Of a stretch of DNA of 64,000 bases, positions 1 to 16,510 are shown piece after piece; positions within the stretch are counted from its first letter, which is position 1, and each line of letters opens with the position of its first letter. The position numbers and the translations under genes are program-made. Source of the stretch: Eledone cirrhosa (Eukaryota); contig CAXHJY010001211.1 in NCBI GenBank assembly GCA_964016885.1, forward strand, positions 16,640 through 80,639. The letters run 5' to 3'. The notes beneath the pieces are model-generated. The model was not told the origin of the DNA. It saw only the letters and a list, made by a program, of their open reading frames with translations, and ran no database searches.

Positions 1-2474
1 AAAACAACTTAAATAAAATTGATGTTTGTTGAGATATTTTCAAAATAGTTATGAGTTCATATTTAGAATCTGTTAGAACGGTAAAAATGATTGGAAGTAG
101 TGGTATGATAGATTACATTTCCACTGCTATTTCTATCTTTAATTTTCAGGTAGTTTAGTTATTTTTACCCTTATTTGTTTAATTTATTTGTTTATTCGCT
201 AATTCAATCTATTTCAACTGACGCTGAGAGCTAAACACTTCTGTTAAGATATTGATCTGCTGTTAATTATTGAATTCTTGGATATAGCTTATTAACTTTG
301 TGATATTTAGCTCTAGCCAAGATCTATGAACAAAGGTAAACTAGAGGTGACCATGTCAAGTTTTGTATATCAAAGTTTCCTTCTGTATTTATGAATGCGG
401 TACGATGTGAAGGGGATTTAGCTGTTGTTTCTAGTAGTTGGATCAATGGTGTTGATGCAATGATGAAGAAATCTTTAAGTGTTTGTGGTGAGTTACAAGT
501 GGAAAAGAACTTGTAGAATCATATTTGTATCGAGAAAAATAATGAACATTTAATTTTTAAAATCCTTATATTACTGTTGAAGGATTAAACGATTATCTAG
601 TTTAGAGACTCCGTCACCGGATGATTTCAAATAGGAATGTGTGGGAAATTTAACACCGCGGTCAACTTTGCCTTTTATATTTTCGGGATCGATAAAATAC
701 AAGCTCTAAGTAGGGACCCCTAAAATCTGATGGGAGTCGTAGGTGCAGCTTGGTAACATACAGCGTGTCTTTGGCCTTTTTAACATGGCGGAGCCTCCCC
801 CCCCCCCCCAGCAAGAACACACCTGATTTCTTTGCTAAAGAAAGTGAGGTAGTGACAGAGCGGAAGTGAGAAAGAAATATAGAGGAAGAATCTAACCCAC
901 TACTGGACTCGTACTGTTTTTATCCATCTCGAAAAGCTGGAAGGAAAAGTTGACTTGGGGAGTTTTTGATTCAGAGCTAAGAGCTGGATCATATACCGCA
1001 AAGCATGTTATCCGACGTTCTAACGTCTCTATTATGACCTTGTGTCAATGTCACAACTGAACATTGTTTTAAAATCTGTAATTGAAACCATGTTTAGTTC
1101 AGTGGAGTTTGATATACATAAAGCAGTGAGCTCAGAAGAATGTTTAATCAACTGAAATGTTCCTCCACGGTGAGAAGAAGAATCCATTGACGTGAATAAC
1201 AGGAGAGGTAAGGGTGAACACTGAAATTTAAGTTGATTAAATATTAAACCATCTAGTGGCTTATGAGCCTGGCTTTGGTAAGTACGGTGGCAACGCTTGA
1301 AATGTTTCAGTCTTAAACCTCCTCAGCGACGTTAGGTTGAATTTGAGAAAATATAGTTTCTTTTCGCTAAAATTATACCCGGATTAAACAATTCAAAATG
1401 ATGACTGGGGACATTTTTCCAGTGATACCTTCTGTGTGAAGAGAATGCAGGTATGTTTGTACCAACATATTTAATATGAGTTCCATATAGTCTTGTAGGG
1501 ACATATCAACCAATAAATAGAAACAGAATCTAATTCATTTCTGATAAAGCAGACTAAAGGTATTCCTCCTCTTCAACCCATGCCAATATTTTCCAGACAT
1601 GTATCTAGCAATATTTGATTAGATTTCAAGACAATAGCTTTGAATTCATAGTAATTTGGCTGCTATTTCTAACATGTTTAGTAATCACAACACCTATAGT
1701 TGAACTCAACTTTTCTATTTATTATTATATTGTTGTTTAACCATGAGTCATCGCTGAGTGAACAGGCCTATGATCGGGTTCCCACCAAGACGATTCCGAC
1801 GTTTTTATCTACATGGTATAGATACAACCGCACTATTCAATGTATTAACTTTTTAAAGGCAATACTTGGCTTTGGCATGAGATACATTTGGCTGCTATTT
1901 CTAACAGGTCTACTGAGGGCGTTGTTGTCACCTTCTTCGATGGAGTGACTTTTCACTTGTTACACAATGAAGGAAAATGTGGAAATGTCATGTTTAAATG
2001 AAGTAAATAACAAAAGAAACAGGTTAGGTGGGAACACAACATCCTGGAGGGTTAAATAATGTTTAGCATAAAAGGTGGGGGTAGGATGTGTATAGTTGGA
2101 GGATGCGTATAGTTGGAGGATGGGAGAACTATTATGATGCTAAATATATAAATGAAAAAAGAATGAAGAAAAAAATAAAATGGCGACGATTTGAAGCCTG
2201 CTGCTTGGTGCAAAGAAAGAAACTAAGAATGGGTGGTGAAAATACCATAAATATTGCATCAAGAACTTTATTAAAACATTAACAATTTGATAATGTGTTA
2301 GCCACTGATGTATTTTAAATGAGCTTGCCTTTCTTTTCCTTATTTTAAACAGTTCTTTGTATACATGTTGCTGTCTAATTCTATAACAAAGACTGTATTC
2401 AAATTTATTTTAGTGAAATAACTTTTACTGTTTTTTTTTTAATGAATTTACAATACACACAAACTCAAAGTAAA

Positions 2475-2665
2475 TATGTGTTTATGTATGTATGGATGTA
2501 TGGATGGATGTGTGGATGTATGGATCGATGTGTGTGGATGGATGGATGGATGTGTGTGTCTGTATGGTTGTATGGATGTGTGTATGAATGGACGGATGCG
2601 TTTGTGTATGTGTGAGTGTATGTATGCATGTATGTATGTATGTATATGTGTATGTATGTATGTAT
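2475..2665. repeat. Degenerate (TGTA/TGGA)n microsatellite
   Basis: Direct inspection. Confidence 0.9.
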
Positions 2666-2749
2666 GCCAAAGGGAGGCAAGTCAACGGCCATCCATAAGG
2701 TTTTCTTTTTTTCTTTTCTTTTTTTTGTGGAGCGAGGGACTCCTATCAT

Positions 2750-2897
2750 TAAGACACCTCTCTAGGAGAAGGTCACTCTGATATGACACCTCTCTAGAAG
2801 GTCACTCTGGTATAAGACACCTCTCTAGAAGGTCACTCTGGTATAAGACACCTCTCTAGAAGGTCACTCTGGTATAAGACACCTTTCTAGGAGAAGG
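2750..2897 (+). repeat. 31-bp tandem repeat, ~4.5 copies
   Basis: Unit TAAGACACCTCTCTAGAAGGTCACTCTGGTA, resembling TCTAGGAGAAGGAAAACTCTGATATAACACC at ~3679 and ~13953. Confidence 0.85.
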
Positions 2898-2959
2898 GTG
2901 ATGCTCATGCTTAAGTATCAAGCGATGGCAATACTCGAAATCTAGTTGCAGCCATCATC

Positions 2960-2971
2960 TATATATCTATG

Positions 2972-3007
<36 letters not shown>

Positions 3008-3197
3008 TGTATGTATGTATGTATGTATGTATGTATGTGTATGTATGTATGTATGTATGTATATATATGTATGTATGTATGTATATATATGTATGTATGT
3101 ATGTATATATATGTATGTATGTATGTATATATATGTATGTATGTATATGTATGTATGTATATATATATATACATACATATATATGTATGTATGTATG

Positions 3198-3228
<31 letters not shown>

Positions 3229-3241
3229 ATATATATGTATG

Positions 3242-3272
<31 letters not shown>

Positions 3273-3448
3273 ATATATATATATGTATGTATATATATAT
3301 ATATGTATGTATATATATATATATGTATGTATATATATATATATGTATGTATATATATATATATGTATGTATGTATGTATATATATATATATATATGTAT
3401 GTATATATATATATATATGTATGTATATATATATATATGTATGTATAT

Positions 3449-3489
<41 letters not shown>

Positions 3490-3638
3490 TATATATGTAT
3501 GTATATATATATATGTATGTATATATATATATATATGTATGTATATATATATATATATGTATGTATATATATATATATATGTATGTATATATATATATGT
3601 ATGTATATATATATATATATATGTATGTATATATATAT
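2960..3638. repeat. (TA)n/(TATG)n compound microsatellite
   Basis: Direct inspection. Confidence 0.97.
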
Positions 3639-3639
3639 G

Positions 3640-4050
3640 CCGGGAGAGATGACCCCTTAGCCTTTGTCAAGGCAGAATTCTAGGAGAAGGAAAACTCTGA
3701 TATAACACCTGCAACCCTGATGGTATCCAATGATGTTGACTTGTTCTTCTTTTTGGTAAATATCATCTTGGTTAAGAGAGTGGGACTGGCTTTGTGCAGT
3801 GCCTTTACTCACTATAAAAGCTTCACGGCACAGGCATTGCTTTATATCTGGAGATCTCTCTGCACTTGTCGTCACATGATACCATTTGCCCAGCACTATG
3901 TGTCAATAATTGTCACAAGTGTAGTGTCTGTACCAGAGTTTTCAAGTCGCTGGCTGGACTAAAAAGTCACACACGTTCAGCGCATCTGTAGGGGTTCTCC
4001 TACATGGATATAAAGTAGTGGCCGTACTCGAAAACGAATTGGCAGCCACC
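3640..4050 (+). repeat. ~410-bp interspersed repeat segment, duplicate of 13914-14326
   Basis: High identity by eye to 13914-14326. Contains TCTAGGAGAAGGAAAACTCTG, which I recognise as resembling RTE-type 5' UTR sequence (family assignment is tentative). Confidence 0.8.
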
Positions 4051-5187
<1,137 letters not shown>

Positions 5188-5190
<3 letters not shown>

Positions 5191-6040
5191 ACAGTATTTT
5201 CCGTTGTGTTGTAATATAAATATTACACACAGTAGATTATCAGCTCACGTAGAGTTTGCTCGACGGTTCCAGTTGTAGTTCCAAAAGTAATCCGGAGAAA
5301 AATAGAAAGATTTGAATGGATACAGTTTAGTTGAAAGGAATTTATTGACACGTGTTTCTATAACAGTTACATAACCTAAAACAGCTATCTACAAACTTTT
5401 AGTTATGCAGACATTCAATATTTCAATGTTATTATTTACTGTCATTTCATCAGAATAATATTACTGAGGACCTATTTAGTTTTTATAGAGAATATTAGGA
5501 GGGAGGGGTGAAGTTGTTAGAAGAATAGTTGAAGGAGTGGTTTTTCGATAGCAGTGAGAATTCTTGGTGGCAGTGAGTAATTAGATTCCCATCTGTTGTT
5601 TTGACATTTTTTATGGAATATATTATTGGTTATTTTTCTAAATCTATAGAAGGATTAGAGATAGTAAAGATATGCGTGGTTGGTTTTGTGTTTGCACTTA
5701 ACATTCAGACTTAAATTTTTCTTTCAAGTGTACGTATTCTTTCACCCACGCATTCACACAAATATATTTGCACACCTCTACAAAATACATATACTCACAA
5801 TTCACATATTCATACTTACATATATATACACATGCATACACATATATATACACACATGTATTCATGTACATACATACGCGCTCATGTGTATACATTTTCA
5901 TACTCAACTTATCTTTATATATACACACGTATAGACACACACATATATACATACATACTCTAGTCCATGTGTACACACATACGCATACATACACATCCAC
6001 ATACACATACATACATACACATATATATATATATATACAT

Positions 6041-6111
<71 letters not shown>

Positions 6112-6318
6112 CCCACACACACACATATACACATACACACATATATATATATATATATATAAGCACTTTAATACATGAATACACTTACATCTAACTATAC
6201 ACATCAAACATATATATATATTTACTTATTTATATACATTTTCACATATATATACATACTTATGGACGTTTTTAGACACATTCATTATCGCATATTTGTA
6301 CCTATTCTCATCAGCATA
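5188..6318 (-). repeat. 3' pseudo-LTR of PLE copy 1
   Basis: Near-identical direct repeat of 8803-9919 and inverted repeat of 12594-13588. Contains an internal CA/TA microsatellite. Confidence 0.88.
5342..5458 (-). ncRNA. Hammerhead ribozyme copy (3' pLTR of copy 1)
   Basis: Reverse complement of 13432-13548, on the element's sense strand. Confidence 0.75.
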
Positions 6319-6430
6319 TCTTTTCATTATTAGTATGGTAATTTAAGGTTATTAATATATGTTGAGAAGAGATTGTTTTTATATTTTTCTAACTAGATTA
6401 AGGTTTATATAGTTGGGGGATGTCCCTCTT

Positions 6431-8752
6431 TTATGTAATATTCGGCTTGTAGTGGGAAAAAAGGGTTTTAGTTCTGTGACGGCAGAATAATGTTCGTTCA
6501 ATTCTGTTATTCAGCAGTTTCTTCTTGTGTGTGATTATGTAATAAATCTCAAGATTACACAATTTGCAGAAATTTTGGCTCCTGGAAAAGCTTTGGGTTT
6601 TAGCTAATTTTTCCCATTTTAGGGTAAACTTTTGATTGCTATCCCTGAGCGTCCAAGCTTTTTCTGCTAAAGTTGTTACATTTCTTTGGCTCTGGTGTTT
6701 TATTGAGTAAGAATGCCTATACAATCGAGATTTAAACGATGTTGCCGTTGATCCCACGTAATACTACTCGTTGCCTCCGGATTTAATGGTACACTTATAA
6801 ATAATATTTTTTTCCAGGCAGTTATTGCCGAGGGGGCAGTTGTCAGGATAGGTGCAGTTACAGTTGTGTACGTTGGGTTTTCTCTGGAGTAGTATTGCGG
6901 ACGAACTTAGGTGTGGTTTATTTATGTTCTGTAGTGTATTGTCTACTGTTTTTTGGGGGTTCTTTGTACTTAAGTTCTTAGTGTTTTCGTTTAACCTTCT
7001 AGTATTGATCTTTTTTATGTGTTGTTCAAGGTTTAACGCTGTAGAGTATGACAGTCTTATAGTGGTAGGGTTTAGGATTTTGTGGTATTTGTGTGATGTG
7101 GGAAAATGTCTTTTAATTATTTTAAAGAAGAGTACTGGTAAATTTGTACTAATGGAGCTATTGTATTCGGGGTTATACCATAAGTACTCTTTGCATCGCT
7201 TTCTATTAGTTTTGTTTGTTGGTTTACTGGTGTGCATACTATGGTAGTAAGTGTGGTTTGGTGTTGTGTTATTATATCTACCTATGTGGGATTTATTTTG
7301 GGTGTTTTGATTGTTCCCATCTATGTACTCTATTTTGTTGAGGTAGCCTGCTTTACTAAGGGCGTTATCGTAGTACTCGGCGTGTTCCTTAAATACTTGT
7401 ATGTTAGAAGATAGACCCGAGATTCTAAGGGAAATATTTTTAGGGATAGATTTAATTATAGAGATGGGGTGGTTAGACCCAACATTTACGTATTTGAGAT
7501 TTTCATTCAATTTATGAAACGGTTTAATCAAACCAGAGTTTAAATTGAGTGTGACATCCAGGAAGTTAACTACTTTAAGGTTGTATTCATATGTTATAGT
7601 TAGTCCTATTTCGAGTAGTAGTTTTCTTATATCTTTGCGTAGTTTTTCTAGTTTTTGGTTATTAAGGTTTTTAGCTAGGAGGAGAACATCGTCGCGGTAT
7701 ATTCCGCCGTGGAGATTGCTGAATTTTTCCTGGAGTCTAAAGGCGATAAATAACCCCACAATATCAGTTATTTCCGCCGAATCGTTAGAGCCCATTGTTA
7801 TGTCAAAGTTAGAGGGTCTATCTTTACGTACCCAATAACTGTTCTCAAATTTGACTATAGTTTTCCTAGCTTCTAATATAATCTTAATTTCATCGTTTGT
7901 AAGGTCAGAGTTATCCTTAGCAAACTTAATGGCTCTATTCAAAGTTTCAGGTGATATCGATGAGTAATATTCATCGATATCAAACTGGATAAACTTAGAT
8001 TTATTCTTATTGCTAATGCTATTAAACCATCTTATTGCTTCTTGGGTCTTCCCCCAGAGTTTAATGTTAACCTTAGCCTTAATTTGGGGGATGATTCTAT
8101 CTAAGATATATTTGCTTATTTTACCTATATCTGATTTAGAGGGGCAGATTAATCTTATTTTAGGGTCATTATCAAAGTTTACCTTGTGGTCCTTAAGATT
8201 GAAGGTGGGTACCGCCGGTAAGAGTGGTCCTGTCCTATCTTCGATTCCGAGATTTTTCACTATTTCGCATGCCTCATCATTGATGTGCTTAAGGGTTACT
8301 TCACTCGTTTTTCTATATTTTTTATGTAATTCTTTTCGAATGAAGTTGTTGTATGTAGTGCAATCCATAGTGTACAGGTTTGATGTTTTGTCCGCTTTTA
8401 CTACAATTCCTTTGGTGTTTTTAAGGTCGTCCAGTAGTTTTTTTATATCTTTCTGTAATTTGCTGTTGGTGTTGCGTCCTTTGAATTTAATTTTAAGGAT
8501 TAAGTTCATAAGGTCCTGCTCAAATGCATCTAATAGTGGGTTGGTGGGTGGGTTTTTACAAGTCCTAAAACCGAATTTGTTGTTTACACCACTTTCTAAT
8601 GTTGAGTTCATACGGCTTCTATCATAGTGGAGCGTTTTCCACCTGACACGTCGAATGAATTCATTAGTTTTTTGAATCATGCTCAATAAATATTCCTTTC
8701 TACCTTGGGTTGGTATGTTTTTGAGTGACATATCCAGGTAGTGTTTTTCCAT
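6431..8752 (-). pseudogene. PLE reverse transcriptase-GIY-YIG endonuclease, with one premature stop
   Basis: RT motifs KADKTSN, IQFDIDEYYSSI, ITMGSNDSAEI, YRDD and NFLDVTL; linker CNCTYPDNCPLGNNC; GIY-YIG IIYKC...YYVGST...SFKSRLYRH; distal CKLC and CRH. In-frame TAG at 6764-6766 where copy 2 has TGG. Reading through gives 773 aa. Confidence 0.93.
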
Positions 8753-8802
8753 TGTTGTGGTTGCGTTTGCTGTGTGGGTTGCTCGACTTTACAGGAGGTA
8801 AA

Positions 8803-9653
8803 TATACAGTATTTTCCGTTGTGTTGTAATATAAATATTACACACAGTAGATTATCAGCTCACGTAGAGTTTGCTCGACGGTTCCAGTTGTAGTTCCAAA
8901 AGTAATCCGGAGAAAAATAGAAAGATTTGAATGGATACAGTTTAGTTGAAAGGAATTTATTGACACGTGTTTCTATAACAGTTACATAACCTAAAACAGC
9001 TATCTACAAACTTTTAGTTATGCAGACATTCAATATTTCAATGTTATTATTTACTGTCATTTCATCAGAATAATATTACTGAGGACCTATTTAGTTTTTA
9101 TAGAGAATATTAGGAGGGAGGGGTGAAGTTGTTAGAAGAATAGTTGAAGGAGTGGTTTTTCGATAGCAGTGAGAATTCTTGGTGGCAGTGAGTAATTAGA
9201 TTCCCATCTGTTGTTTTGACATTTTTTATGGAATATATTATTGGTTATTTTTCTAAATCTATAGAAGGATTAGAGATAGTAAAGATATGCGTGGTTGGTT
9301 TTGTGTTTGCACTTAACATTCAGACTTAACTTTTTCTTTCAAGTGTACGTATTCTTTCACCCACGCATTCACACAAATATATTTGCACACCTCTACAAAA
9401 TACATATACTCACAATTCACATATTCATACTTACATATATATACACATGCATACACATATATATACACACATGTATTCATGTACATACATACGCGCTCAT
9501 GTGTATACATTTTCATACTCAACTTATCTTTATATATACACACGTATAGACACACACATATATACATACATACTCTAGTCCATGTGTACACACATACGCA
9601 TACATACACATACACATACATACATACACATATATATATATATATATATACAT

Positions 9654-9714
<61 letters not shown>

Positions 9715-9919
9715 CCCACACACACACATATACACATACACACATATATATATATATATATAAGCACTTTAATACATGAATACACTTACATCTAACTATA
9801 CACATCAAACATATATATATATTTACTTATTTATATACATTTTCACATATATATACATACTTATGGACGTTTTTAGACACATTCATTATCGCATATTTGT
9901 ACCTATTCTCATCAGCATA
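8803..9919 (-). repeat. 5' pseudo-LTR of PLE copy 1
   Basis: Direct repeat of 5188-6318, differing by a few substitutions and microsatellite length. Confidence 0.88.
8957..9073 (-). ncRNA. Hammerhead ribozyme copy (5' pLTR of copy 1)
   Basis: Reverse complement of 13432-13548, on the element's sense strand. Confidence 0.75.
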
Positions 9920-10158
9920 GGTTATGTAACTGTTATAGAAACACGTGTCAATAAATTCCTTTCAACTAAACTGTATCCATTCAAATCTTTCTATTTTTCT
10001 CCGGATTACTTTTGGAACTACAACTGGAACCGTCGAGCAAACTCTACGTGAGCTGATAATCTACTGTGTGTAATATTTATATTACAACACAACGGAAAAT
10101 ACTGTATATTTACCTCCTGTAAAGTCGAGCAACCCACACAGCAAACGCAACCACAACA

Positions 10159-12481
10159 ATGGAAAAACACTACCTGGATATGTCACTCAAAAACATACCA
10201 ACCCAAGGTAGAAAGGAATATTTATTGAGCATGATTCAAAAAACTAATGAATTCATTCGACGTGTCAGGTGGAAAACGCTCCACTATGATAGAAGCCGTA
10301 TGAACTCAACATTAGAAAGTGGTGTAAACAACAAATTCGGTTTTAGGACTTGTAAAAACCCACCCACCAACCCACTATTAGATGCATTTGAGCAGGACCT
10401 TATGAACTTAATCCTTAAAATTAAATTCAAAGGACGCAACACCAACAGCAAATTACAGAAAGATATAAAAAAACTACTGGACGACCTTAAAAACACCAAA
10501 GGAATTGTAGTAAAAGCGGACAAAACATCAAACCTGTACACTATGGATTGCACTACATACAACAACTTCATTCGAAAAGAATTACATAAAAAATATAGAA
10601 AAACGAGTGAAGTAACCCTTAAGCACATCAATGATGAGGCATGCGAAATAGTGAAAAATCTCGGAATCGAAGATAGGACAGGACCACTCTTACCGGCGGT
10701 ACCCACCTTCAATCTTAAGGACCACAAGGTAAACTTTGATAATGACCCTAAAATAAGATTAATCTGCCCCTCTAAATCAGATATAGGTAAAATAAGCAAA
10801 TATATCTTAGATAGAATCATCCCCCAAATTAAGGCTAAGGTTAACATTAAACTCTGGGGGAAGACCCAAGAAGCAATAAGATGGTTTAATAGCATTAGCA
10901 ATAAGAATAAATCTAAGTTTATCCAGTTTGATATCGATGAATATTACTCATCGATATCACCTGAAACTTTGAATAGAGCCATTAAGTTTGCTAAGGATAA
11001 CTCTGACCTTACAAACGATGAAATTAAGATTATATTAGAAGCTAGGAAAACTATAGTCAAATTTGAGAACAGTTATTGGGTACGTAAAGATAGACCCTCT
11101 AACTTTGACATAACAATGGGCTCTAACGATTCGGCGGAAATAACTGATATTGTGGGGTTATTTATCGCCTTTAGACTCCAGGAAAAATTCAGCAATCTCC
11201 ACGGCGGAATATACCGCGACGATGTTCTCCTCCTAGCTAAAAACCTTAATAACCAAAAACTAGAAAAACTACGCAAAGATATAAGAAAACTACTACTCGA
11301 AATAGGACTAACTATAACATATGAATACAACCTTAAAGTAGTTAACTTCCTGGATGTCACACTCAATTTAAACTCTGGTTTGATTAAACCGTTTCATAAA
11401 TTGAATGAAAATCTCAAATACGTAAATGTTGGGTCTAACCACCCCATCTCTATAATTAAATCTATCCCTAAAAATATTTCCCTTAGAATCTCGGGTCTAT
11501 CTTCTAACATACAAGTATTTAAGGAACACGCCGAGTACTACGATAACGCCCTTAGTAAAGCAGGCTACCTCAACAAAATAGAGTACATAGATGGGAACAA
11601 TCAAAACACCCAAAATAAATCCCACATAGGTAGATATAATAACACAACACCAAACCACACTTACTACCATAGTATGCACACCAGTAAACCAACAAACAAA
11701 ACTAATAGAAAGCGATGCAAAGAGTACTTATGGTATAACCCCGAATACAATAGCTCCATTAGTACAAATTTACCAGTACTCTTCTTTAAAATAATTAAAA
11801 GACATTTTCCCACATCACACAAATACCACAAAATCCTAAACCCTACCACTATAAGACTGTCATACTCTACAGCGTTAAACCTTGAACAACACATAAAAAA
11901 GATCAATACTAGAAGGTTAAACGAAAACACTAAGAACTTAAGTACAAAGAACCCCCAAAAAACAGTAGACAATACACTACAGAACATAAATAAACCACAC
12001 CTAAGTTCGTCCGCAATACTACTCCAGAGAAAACCCAACGTACACAACTGTAACTGCACCTATCCTGACAACTGCCCCCTCGGCAATAACTGCCTGGAAA
12101 AAAAATATTATTTATAAGTGTACCATTAAATCCGGAGGCAACGAGTGGTATTACGTGGGATCAACGGCAACATCGTTTAAATCTCGATTGTATAGGCATT
12201 CTTACTCAATAAAACACCAGAGCCAAAGAAATGTAACAACTTTAGCAGAAAAAGCTTGGACGCTCAGGGATAGCAATCAAAAGTTTACCCTAAAATGGGA
12301 AAAATTAGCTAAAACCCAAAGCTTTTCCAGGAGCCAAAATTTCTGCAAATTGTGTAATCTTGAGATTTATTACATAATCACACACAAGAAGAAACTGCTG
12401 AATAACAGAATTGAACGAACATTATTCTGCCGTCACAGAACTAAAACCCTTTTTTCCCACTACAAGCCGAATATTACATAA
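10159..12481 (+). pseudogene. PLE reverse transcriptase-GIY-YIG endonuclease, with one +1 frameshift
   Basis: Translation matches copy 1 up to NNCLEK. The A-run at 12098-12105 has 8 A versus 7 in copy 1, shifting the frame just before the GIY-YIG motif. The downstream frame (EWYYVGSTAT...) is intact. Confidence 0.93.
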
Positions 12482-12798
12482 AAGAGGGACATCCCCCAAC
12501 TATATAAACCTTAATCTAGTTAGAAAAATATAAAAACAATCTCTTCTCAACATATATTAATAACCTTAAATTACCATACTAATAATGAAAAGATATGCTG
12601 ATGAGAATAGGTACAAATATGCGATAATGAATGTGTCTAAAAACGTCCATAAGTATGTATATATATGTGAAAATGTATATAAATAAGTAAATATATATAT
12701 ATGTTTGATGTGTATAGTTAGATGTAAGTGTATTCATGTATTAAAGTGCTTATATATATATATATATATGTGTGTATGTATATATGTGTGTGTGTGGG

Positions 12799-12847
<49 letters not shown>

Positions 12848-13431
12848 ATGTATATATATATATATATATGTGTATGTATGTATGTGTATGTGGATGTGTA
12901 TGTATGCGTATGTGTGTACACATGGACTAGAGTATGTATGTATATATGTGTGTGTCTATACGTGTGTATATATAAAGATAAGTTGAGTATGAAAATGTAT
13001 ACACATGAGCGCGTATGTATGTACATGAATACATGTGTGCATATATATGTGTATGCATGTGTATATATATGTAAGTATGAATATGTGAATTGTGAGTATA
13101 TGTATTTTGTAGAGGTGTGCAAATATATTTGTGTGAATGCGTGGGTGAAAGAATACGTACACTTGAAAGAAAAATTTAAGTCTGAATGTTAAGTGCAAAC
13201 ACAAAACCAACCACGCATATCTTTACTATCTCTAATCCTTCTATAGATTTAGAAAAATAACCAATAATATATTCCATAAAAAATGTCAAAACAACAGATG
13301 GGAATCTAATTACTCACTGCCACCAAGAATTCTCACTGCTATCGAAAAACCACTCCTTCAACTATTCTTCTAACAACTTCACCCCTCCCTCCTAATATTC
13401 TCTATAAAAACTAAATAGGTCCTCAGTAATA

Positions 13432-13548
13432 TTATTCTGATGAAATGACAGTAAATAATAACATTGAAATATTGAATGTCTGCATAACTAAAAGTTTGTA
13501 GATAGCTGTTTTAGGTTATGTAACTGTTATAGAAACACGTGTCAATAA
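13432..13548 (+). ncRNA. Minimal type I hammerhead ribozyme with expanded stem II (PLE pLTR)
   Basis: TTATT-CTGATGA-A-ATGACAGT...ACTGTTAT-A-GAAA-C-ACGT-G-TC-AATAA: 5-bp stem I, both core boxes, 1-bp stem III with palindromic ACGT loop, GUC cleavage triplet (cut after 13543). Confidence 0.75.
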
Positions 13549-13613
13549 ATTCCTTTCAACTAAACTGTATCCATTCAAATCTTTCTATATATATATGTAT
13601 GTATGTATATATG

Positions 13614-13652
<39 letters not shown>

Positions 13653-13713
13653 GTATGTATATATATATATATATATACATATATTTATATATATATATAT
13701 ATATACATATATT

Positions 13714-14326
13714 TCTGTCAGGTCACCAGTTGGTGCTACTGGTAACATGTATCCCAGTACAACCTGTCCCATGGTCGGGTCGTTGGCGACTAAACTGGCA
13801 ACCCCACCAAGGTTTCTTGGTGAGGAGGGTGACTTTGGACATCCTGCAGGACTAAAAACAAAACCTGTCAAAGGGCAAAGGAGCTCTTAAGAGTCAATGG
13901 CCATCCAAAATCACCGGGAGAGATGACCCCTTAGCCTTTGTCAAGGCATAATTCTAGGAGAAGGAAAACTCTGATATAACACCTGCAACCCTGATGGTAT
14001 CCAATGATGTTGACTTGTTCTTCTTTTTGGTAAATATCATCTTGGTTAAGAGAGTGGGACTGGCTTTGTGCAGTGCCTTTGCTCACTATAAAAGCTTCAC
14101 GGCACAGGCATTGCTTTATATCTGGAGATCTCTCTACACTTGTCGTCACATGGTACCATGGGCCCAGCACTATGTGTCAATAATTGTCACAGGTGTGGAG
14201 TGTTTGTACCAGAGTTTTCAAGTCGCTGGCTGGACTAAAAAGTCACACTCGTTCAGCACATTGGTAGGGGTTCTCCTACATGGATATAAAGTAGTGGCCG
14301 TACTCGAAAACGAGTTGGCAGCCACC
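13714..14326 (+). mobile_element. Interspersed repeat, longer copy (possible RTE-related non-autonomous element)
   Basis: The 5' part (13714-13908) has a diverged inverted homolog at ~18082-18270. The 3' part is duplicated at 3640-4050. Flanked by TA/TATG tracts. Confidence 0.6.
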
Positions 14327-14328
14327 AT

Positions 14329-14362
<34 letters not shown>

Positions 14363-14363
14363 G

Positions 14364-14402
<39 letters not shown>

Positions 14403-14414
14403 GTATGTATATAT

Positions 14415-14448
<34 letters not shown>

Positions 14449-14784
14449 GTATGTATATATATATGTATGTATGTATATATATATATATGTATGTATGTAT
14501 GTATGTATACACGAGTGTGTGTTCTGGTTTTATAATTTTATATATTTTCACCAATAGAGAGCCAGATTCTAATATAGACGGGACTGTTTCATTTGAATTT
14601 AGATCACATCAACTAGGTAAATATATATGTATGGGTATGTGTGCAAGTATAGATATATATGTGTAGATCTACACGTGCATGCTTGTGAATTTACACGTGT
14701 AAATGCATATATTTGTGAAAGCAATATATGCATTCTTTTATTCTAATATTAAAATATAAAATATGTAATAGTTTACTAAAGTAG

Positions 14785-16398: not shown

Positions 16399-16510
16399 AT
16401 AGGAAAAGTTCAGGATCCCGACGGCAGAGCTCAAGCCGTTTCGACGGCTAGTCCAGAAATAGTCATCGAAACGGCTTGAGCTCTGCCGTCGGGTCCTGAA
16501 CTTTTCCTAT
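16399..16510. repeat. Near-perfect fold-back inverted repeat (46/45-bp arms, 21-bp loop)
   Basis: ATAGGAAAAGTTCAGGATCCCGACGGCAGAGCTCAAGCCGTTTCGA versus its reverse complement at 16466-16510, with one indel. Confidence 0.92.

What the first reader, a model, noticed from the sequence alone, without database searches (positions are those of the whole stretch)
5188..13588. Head-to-head full-ORF inverted pair of Penelope-like elements, joined by a 2-nt microhomology
Seen: 5302-8993 and 9918-13588 form a ~3.7-kb near-perfect inverted repeat. Both ORFs point outward and both 3' ends fuse to TA-rich microsatellite. The 5' ends meet at CAGCA-TA-GGTTATG (9918-9919), where TA is shared by both parents. 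Known: PLEs often carry tandem and inverted pLTRs. Inference: duplication of the entire ORF suggests one integration event in which both sides of a cut (TA)n target primed reverse transcription and the two cDNAs were joined at their 5' ends. Read-through transcription would give a multi-kb hairpin RNA, a possible siRNA/piRNA source or ADAR substrate.
Basis: partly seen in the sequence, partly recalled or inferred. Interest (0 to 1): 0.8.

Follow-up and report, generated by a model that had tools for sequence, protein, structure and literature searches.

The report
Two-armed Hydra-clade Penelope retrotransposon insertion
Two back-to-back, near-identical copies of a Penelope-like jumping gene sit here in a layout already described and common in this genome; their two fixed, never-matching end points and shared variants suggest both cut DNA ends likely copied the same RNA.

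Summary
The inverted pair is real (arms 99.2% alike, 2-nt TA overlap), but neither ORF is intact and the layout is not special. The element is a young Hydra-clade Penelope-like retrotransposon that targets (TA)n. Head-to-head insertion is the family norm: 38 of 60 loci taken in chromosome order have two arms, and 8 other loci carry the whole ORF in both arms. Head-to-head pairs with a one-sided tail are in print.

The survey adds a mechanistic constraint. In 57 of 57 resolved two-armed insertions one arm ends at monomer nt 77 and the other at nt 192. The two arms share a haplotype (0.25% apart versus 1.17% between insertions). Their lengths are independent, which argues against simple fold-back. 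Junction microhomology is enriched family-wide, though 2 nt at one junction is unremarkable. Best reading: both target ends prime at two fixed sites, likely on one RNA, and the cDNA 3' ends anneal.

No contig spanned this junction, no empty allele was found, and the hairpin RNA is untested. The scan has noted the same layout and double priming on other DNA before.

The parts
5188..9919 (-). Left (tailed) arm: monomer nt 2677-3594, one full unit, then nt 1-191 fused to TA/TATG repeat
9918..13588 (+). Right (tail-less) arm: one full unit nt 1-3594, then nt 1-77 fused to TA repeat
6431..8752 (-). Left RT-EN ORF, interrupted by TAG at 6764-6766 before the endonuclease core
10159..12481 (+). Right RT-EN ORF, frameshifted by one extra A in the run at 12098-12105
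8994..9917 (-). 924-bp spacer = 3' UTR part of the left arm's upstream partial unit (pseudo-LTR)
   Evidence: 8803-9919 matches 5188-6318 at 98.3%
9918..9919 (.). 5'-to-5' junction, TA shared by both arms
5188..5301 (-). One-sided tail, monomer nt 78-191 (about 115 nt), at the left outer end only
13437..13482 (+). Degenerate hammerhead-like motif (core, stem II, stem III, GUC present; stem I not paired); copies in the other two 3' UTRs
   Evidence: no Rfam hammerhead hit
4051..5187 (.). Left target: TA/TATG microsatellite
13589..13712 (.). Right target: TA/TATG microsatellite

Best explanation
This is a young two-armed insertion of a Hydra-clade Penelope-like retrotransposon, likely made in one event in which both cut ends of a (TA)n target primed reverse transcription at two different fixed sites, probably on the same tandem-repeat RNA. 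Shown: the layout, the two end points (nt 77 and nt 192), their strict pairing, the shared haplotype, independent arm lengths and enriched junction microhomology. Inferred: the endonuclease cuts both strands; one target end pairs with UAU at nt 75-77 and the other with UAUAU at nt 188-192; the two cDNAs run upstream and stop independently (the second would displace the first, PLE RTs lacking RNase H, recalled); their 3' ends anneal by a few bases and each would template the other's second strand. Two whole ORFs arise when both cDNAs happen to pass the start codon.
For: 57 of 57 two-armed insertions with both ends resolved pair one nt-77 end with one nt-192 end (51, 6; 2 further loci unresolved). 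From end positions alone on C1 0-175 Mb, 48 of 48 divergent neighbour pairs are mixed, against 1 convergent and 2 same-direction pairs (overlaps the fetched set). Arms within an insertion differ at 101 of 41,101 positions (0.25%) versus 1.17% between insertions; lineage-marking alleles agree in 152 of 171 cases within versus 1,387 of 11,268 between; 25 alleles occur in both arms of one insertion and in no other sampled one (47 loci). Reach is uncoupled: tail-less arm further in 16, tailed arm in 19, 1 tie of 36; Spearman 0.08. Overlap of 2 nt or more in 18 of 29 clean junctions versus 17.6% by chance. 4 of 36 pairs stop within 15 nt of the same template position versus 0.31 expected, as expected of a shared template end. 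Contigs of other runs show both end points fused to TA. In vitro, a Poseidon PLE cuts and extends both strands and initiates at two sites that bound the tail (PMC11167929).
Against: Sequence cannot tell one RNA molecule from two RNAs of the same source locus. Gene conversion between arms could also raise their identity. 19 of 171 marker sites disagree within insertions (most at an indel-prone run or at arm ends, judged by eye). 11 of 40 anchored junctions carry extra or unmatched letters and 6 of 29 clean ones are blunt. 22 of 60 ordered loci have one arm only. PMC11167929 found no homology between cut DNA and initiation site and no difference in start site between strands, whereas here both ends show TA microhomology and strict complementarity. 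No read or contig was seen crossing this junction.
Confidence: 0.62

Rival explanations
1. One event, both target ends primed, but on two separate RNA molecules from the same source locus held by an asymmetric protein dimer.
For: Fits haplotype sharing and independent lengths equally well; a dimer is predicted for the Poseidon protein (PMC11167929).
Against: Needs an extra rule to forbid like-ended pairs (0 of 57) and does not explain the excess of pairs that stop at the same template position (4 of 36 vs 0.31) unless these are shared pause sites.
Confidence: 0.2
2. Self-priming/fold-back (proposed in PMC3846280): one arm is copied from the other, and the palindrome centre is later trimmed by asymmetric microhomology-mediated deletion.
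For: Explains arm identity, junction microhomology and the 4 near-palindromic junctions.
Against: Without trimming the tail-less arm must nest inside the tailed arm; it reaches further in 16 of 36, by up to 5 kb. Insertions with zero arm differences (L037, L104, L106) are already asymmetric by 0.4-1.3 kb, so trimming would have to be immediate and large.
Confidence: 0.12
3. Two independent insertions into the same microsatellite, or a fold-back read/assembly artefact.
For: The contig is a short (80,639 bp) repeat-rich one; no contig in 4 public runs crossed the junction; no empty allele found.
Against: No TA tract lies between the arms; flanks differ on the two sides; the arms end at different fixed points and differ at two coding positions; the same grammar holds at dozens of loci on chromosome-scale contigs; independent insertions would give all orientations and end types (48 divergent vs 3 other) and unrelated haplotypes.
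Confidence: 0.06

Closest known systems
Hydra clade of C-terminal EN+ Penelope-like elements (Craig et al. 2021, PMC8557442)
   Same: Single RT-EN ORF; RWK, DKT, CxCX5C linker, no CCHH, CxxC and CxH near the EN end, (TA)n target; Penelope-13_HM is listed with an inverted 5'-truncated copy at its 5' end (File S1).
   Different: Unit is 3.6 kb (listed Hydra elements are generally under 3 kb) with a microsatellite-rich 3' UTR; the hammerhead lacks a paired stem I; no phylogeny against the published sequences was run.
Head-to-head PLE insertions with inverted pLTR and one-sided tail (Adineta vaga Pen2a, PMC3846280; PMC8557442 Fig. 2 legend)
   Same: Partial tandem plus inverted 5'-truncated copy at the 5' end; tail on one of the two arms.
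   Different: Tail is about 115 nt, not 30-40; the inverted copy here is a whole unit; most junctions are not palindromic, against the self-priming reading.
Poseidon of Anolis in vitro (Frangieh et al. 2024, PMC11167929)
   Same: Both strands cut and extended; two internal initiation sites that bound the tail.
   Different: Different clade; no target homology reported there; the parts read do not link the two sites to the two arms of one inverted insertion.
L1 twin priming (recalled, no call)
   Same: Both target strands prime on one RNA and give an inversion joined by microhomology.
   Different: In L1 the two pieces are largely non-overlapping and the second site is opportunistic; here both arms copy the same 3' region and both sites are fixed.

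Membership tests
Hydra-clade PLE | Single ORF, RT with C-terminal GIY-YIG-type EN | tested here: met
   773-aa ORF in intact copy L037 with YRDD at 352 and YVG at 665; aligned homologs share the layout. Pfam gave no hit, so the EN call rests on motifs.
Hydra-clade PLE | RWK motif, DKT in place of DKG, GxKF/Y not conserved | tested here: met
   RWK at 37, DKT at 121, no GxKF/Y
Hydra-clade PLE | CxCX5C linker; CCHH absent; CxxC and CxH near the conserved E and N | tested here: met
   CNCTYPDNC at 631, CKLC at 729, CRH at 757; no CX2-5CxxC
Hydra-clade PLE | Insertion into (TA)n | tested here: met
   Flanks printed; 1,564 and 1,114 exact end-plus-TA matches
Hydra-clade PLE | Canonical hammerhead ribozyme in the pLTR | tested here: inconclusive
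   Core, 4-bp stem II, 5-bp stem III and GUC present at 13437-13482 in the format of File S2, but stem I does not pair; no Rfam hammerhead at E<=5
Hydra-clade PLE | RT phylogeny groups with published Hydra elements | not tested
Naiad/Chlamys PLE | N-terminal EN, CxC motif, DKA | tested here: not met
   EN motifs are C-terminal and the motif is DKT
Canonical PLE inverted insertion unit | Partial tandem (pLTR), inverted copy at the 5' end, tail on one end only | tested here: met
Canonical PLE inverted insertion unit | One target-site duplication around the whole unit | not testable with these tools
   Both flanks are TA/TATG repeat and no empty allele is in the assembly

The most novel reading that the evidence does not exclude
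Penelope-like elements integrate by programmed double priming: one RNA molecule carries two fixed start sites, each cut target end takes one, the same RNA is copied twice, and the two cDNA 3' ends anneal and serve as each other's second-strand template. This single cycle would explain the inverted arms, the one-sided tail and second-strand synthesis, and would make arm-to-arm divergence an insertion clock like LTR pairs.
Probability: 0.45. Interest if true: 0.7.

Novelty: new member of a known kind. Interest (0 to 1): 0.38.

Why it matters
The locus itself is ordinary for its family. The family is useful: how PLEs form tandem and inverted structures is named as an open question in PMC8557442, and this one offers on the order of a thousand young copies with two well-separated end points (115 nt apart), lineage-marking variants and naturally intact ORFs. 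That makes the one-RNA versus two-RNA versus fold-back question directly testable by genome counting and by a two-template assay.

Tried and rejected
Uniqueness of the double-ORF pair: rejected (8 other loci). Nested-arm fold-back: rejected in its simple form. Flank similarity (3640-4233 vs 13914-14509, 93.8%) as a target duplication: rejected, it is a dispersed 0.6-kb repeat family. Empty allele or second haplotype in the assembly: none found with two flank probes. Pfam: no family for the window ORF pieces or, beyond 3 weak single hits, for 9 homologs. Rfam: only microRNA/snoRNA models on the TA-rich parts, all below gathering score. Literature: 5 searches found no paper stating strict pairing of the two start sites or same-template arms; the library lacks most subscription papers, and Evgen'ev and Arkhipova 2005 and Arkhipova 2006 were not seen.

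Full report
Observation. Self-alignment gives arms 5302-8993 and 9918-13588 at 99.19% over 3,693 columns. Taking window 9918-13511 as the 3,594-nt monomer, the right arm is nt 1-3594 then nt 1-77, and the left arm (minus strand, 9919 to 5188) is nt 2677-3594, a whole unit, then nt 1-191. The 924-bp spacer is therefore the left arm's pseudo-LTR. The TA at 9918-9919 belongs to both arms. Each ORF has one lesion: a TAG at 6764-6766 on the left and an extra A at 12098-12105 on the right; naturally intact copies encode 773 aa. These two lesions are the only arm differences outside the simple-repeat part of the 3' UTR (1 substitution in 3,169 positions), so the insertion is very young.

Identity. 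Pfam finds nothing. A homolog search gave 333 hits, the 120 listed being 31-44% identical and nearly all unnamed. An intact copy carries RWK, DKT, YRDD, CxCX5C, CxxC and CxH and lacks GxKF/Y and the CX2-5CxxC linker, the features given for the Hydra clade in PMC8557442 section 11. A hammerhead core with stems II and III lies at 13437-13482, but stem I does not pair and Rfam gave no hammerhead. No tree was built, so membership rests on motifs and target.

Family survey. The genome holds 2,772 exact matches to a terminal motif, 1,564 nt-77 ends and 1,114 nt-192 ends fused to TA and 190 matches to the ORF-start region; only the first 100 places of each are listed. I fetched the first 60 loci in chromosome order and 20 loci chosen as long copies (9 divergent ORF-start candidates, 10 further ORF-start hits, 1). 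With the window, 54 of 81 have two arms, all divergent; 38 of the 60 ordered loci do. Among the 84 loci formed by the first 100 ORF-start hits, of which I fetched about a third, 8 hold the whole ORF in both arms: L031, L032/L137, L034, L035, L037, L038, L039 and L144-145; L035, L037 and L039 have both ORFs intact. The window's pair is the long end of a common distribution.

The end rule. Of the 54 two-armed loci, 51 pair one nt-77 end with one nt-192 end; 3 were unresolved (two ran off the fetched stretch, one ends at nt 28). One search resolved one of these and added five insertions, all mixed: 57 of 57. From positions alone (C1 0-175 Mb, 100 plus 77 ends), neighbours within 15 kb were 48 divergent mixed pairs, no divergent like-ended pair, 1 convergent and 2 same-direction pairs (partly the same loci). 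Both end points sit on TAT or TATAT shared with the target, and contigs of other runs show both fused to TA.

Same template. For 47 two-armed loci (7 complex two-armed and 4 complex single loci left out; 7 of the 47 have no overlap; nt 2700-3200 masked), arms differ at 101 of 41,101 positions against 16,754 of 1,431,111 between insertions. Alleles seen in three or more insertions agree in 152 of 171 cases within and 1,387 of 11,268 between. In 23 of 25 loci with at least 400 nt of overlap no other arm is closer than the partner (5 with ties; 2 had closer arms). Older loci such as L031 have drifted apart by 1.2% with similar variant counts on both arms, so conversion is at least not complete. 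This shows a common source, not a single molecule.

Lengths and junctions. In the 36 simple two-armed ordered loci the tail-less arm reaches further upstream in 16, the tailed arm in 19, with 1 tie (Spearman 0.08), which contradicts a nested copy-back. Four of 36 stop within 15 nt of the same template position (0.31 expected, p 0.00015), which fits a shared template end, or fold-back for a minority. Of 54 junctions 40 passed the anchor check; 11 have extra or unmatched letters; of the 29 clean ones 18 overlap by 2 nt or more (mean 1.97 against 0.74 for random joins; 0 of 5,000 resamples reached it). One 2-nt overlap, as here, occurs in 17.6% of random joins.

Mechanism. The simplest account is that both target strands are cut, each 3' end primes at one of two fixed sites 115 nt apart on a tandem-repeat RNA, the cDNAs stop independently, and their 3' ends anneal and complete each other. 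One RNA copied twice explains why like-ended pairs are absent. This is inference (0.62); two RNAs from one locus (0.20), fold-back with later trimming (0.12) and independent insertion or artefact (0.06) remain. Against my reading: 22 of 60 ordered loci are single-armed, 6 clean junctions are blunt, and the in vitro Poseidon study saw no strand difference in start site and no target homology.

Locus-level limits. No second copy of the flanks exists in the assembly, the contig is 80,639 bp, no contig in four public runs crosses the junction, and no expression, small-RNA or editing data were usable. The hairpin-RNA idea is untested.

What is known. PMC3846280 (passages and Discussion read) calls head-to-head the most frequent arrangement, places the tail on one inverted pLTR and proposes self-priming on an antisense template. 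PMC8557442 (abstract, sections 6, 10, 11, 12, 15, passages, and the supplement part holding the Hydra sheet and hammerhead table) describes the same layout and lists its formation as unexplained. PMC11167929 (parts 1-2 of 4: main text and start of methods) shows two-strand cutting and two start sites bounding the tail. PMC8969392 and bioRxiv 10.64898/2026.07.22.740005 were seen as passages only; supplements other than the one named were not read. L1 twin priming and the lack of RNase H are recalled. Five searches found no statement of strict pairing or same-template arms, within a library that lacks the 2005 and 2006 PLE reviews. Earlier notes of this scan, in this and other genomes, report the same layout, strict long-short pairing and double priming; they are not independent evidence, but the idea is not new to the scan.

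Verdict. A real, young, ordinary member of a known insertion type. Its value lies in the family statistics, which favour programmed double priming over fold-back. Interest 0.38.

Noticed in passing
window 13713-14326 and 3640-4050: A dispersed 0.6-kb non-coding repeat with a (TATG)n tail; the 40 scored matches are 98-100% identical over its first 200 nt. One full and one 5'-truncated copy flank the insertion.
   Followed up: partly
L033 4502-5392; L036 4258-6080: Mini-elements made of tandem 306-322-nt units from the element's 5' region (nt 12-333 or 80-385), still head-to-head with one nt-77 and one nt-192 end; they look like concatemers of a small circle.
   Followed up: partly
monomer nt 3473-3480 (window 13390-13397): 7 of 44 tail-less arms that reach this point stop here, against 0 of 31 tailed arms (Fisher p 0.037, noticed after the fact); it lies about 40 nt upstream of the hammerhead-like core. 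Unexplained.
   Followed up: partly
L032/L137, L047, L049, L051, L146-L147: Several insertions have an ORF that ends at 611 aa (same last residues in L047, L049, L051), and both arms of L038 share a stop at 567 aa: defective lineages appear to be copied in trans.
   Followed up: no
G000:C2:283732758-283746501 (L144-L145): A 13.7-kb two-armed insertion, larger than the window's, with three ORF starts.
   Followed up: partly
window 12098-12105 and L034: The same extra A in this run occurs in one arm of L034: a slippage hot spot or a recurrent consensus error.
   Followed up: no
window 25560-46889: 21-kb satellite array with a 41/126-bp period and an apparent 4,990-bp higher-order duplication (identical ORF translations 4,990 bp apart).
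   Followed up: no
window 16399-16510: 112-bp palindrome (about 90% self-complementary) next to TA repeat.
   Followed up: no
P0011: A homolog named 'GATA zinc finger domain-containing protein 14-like' by its source shares the RT motifs of this family; the name looks like a misannotation.
   Followed up: no
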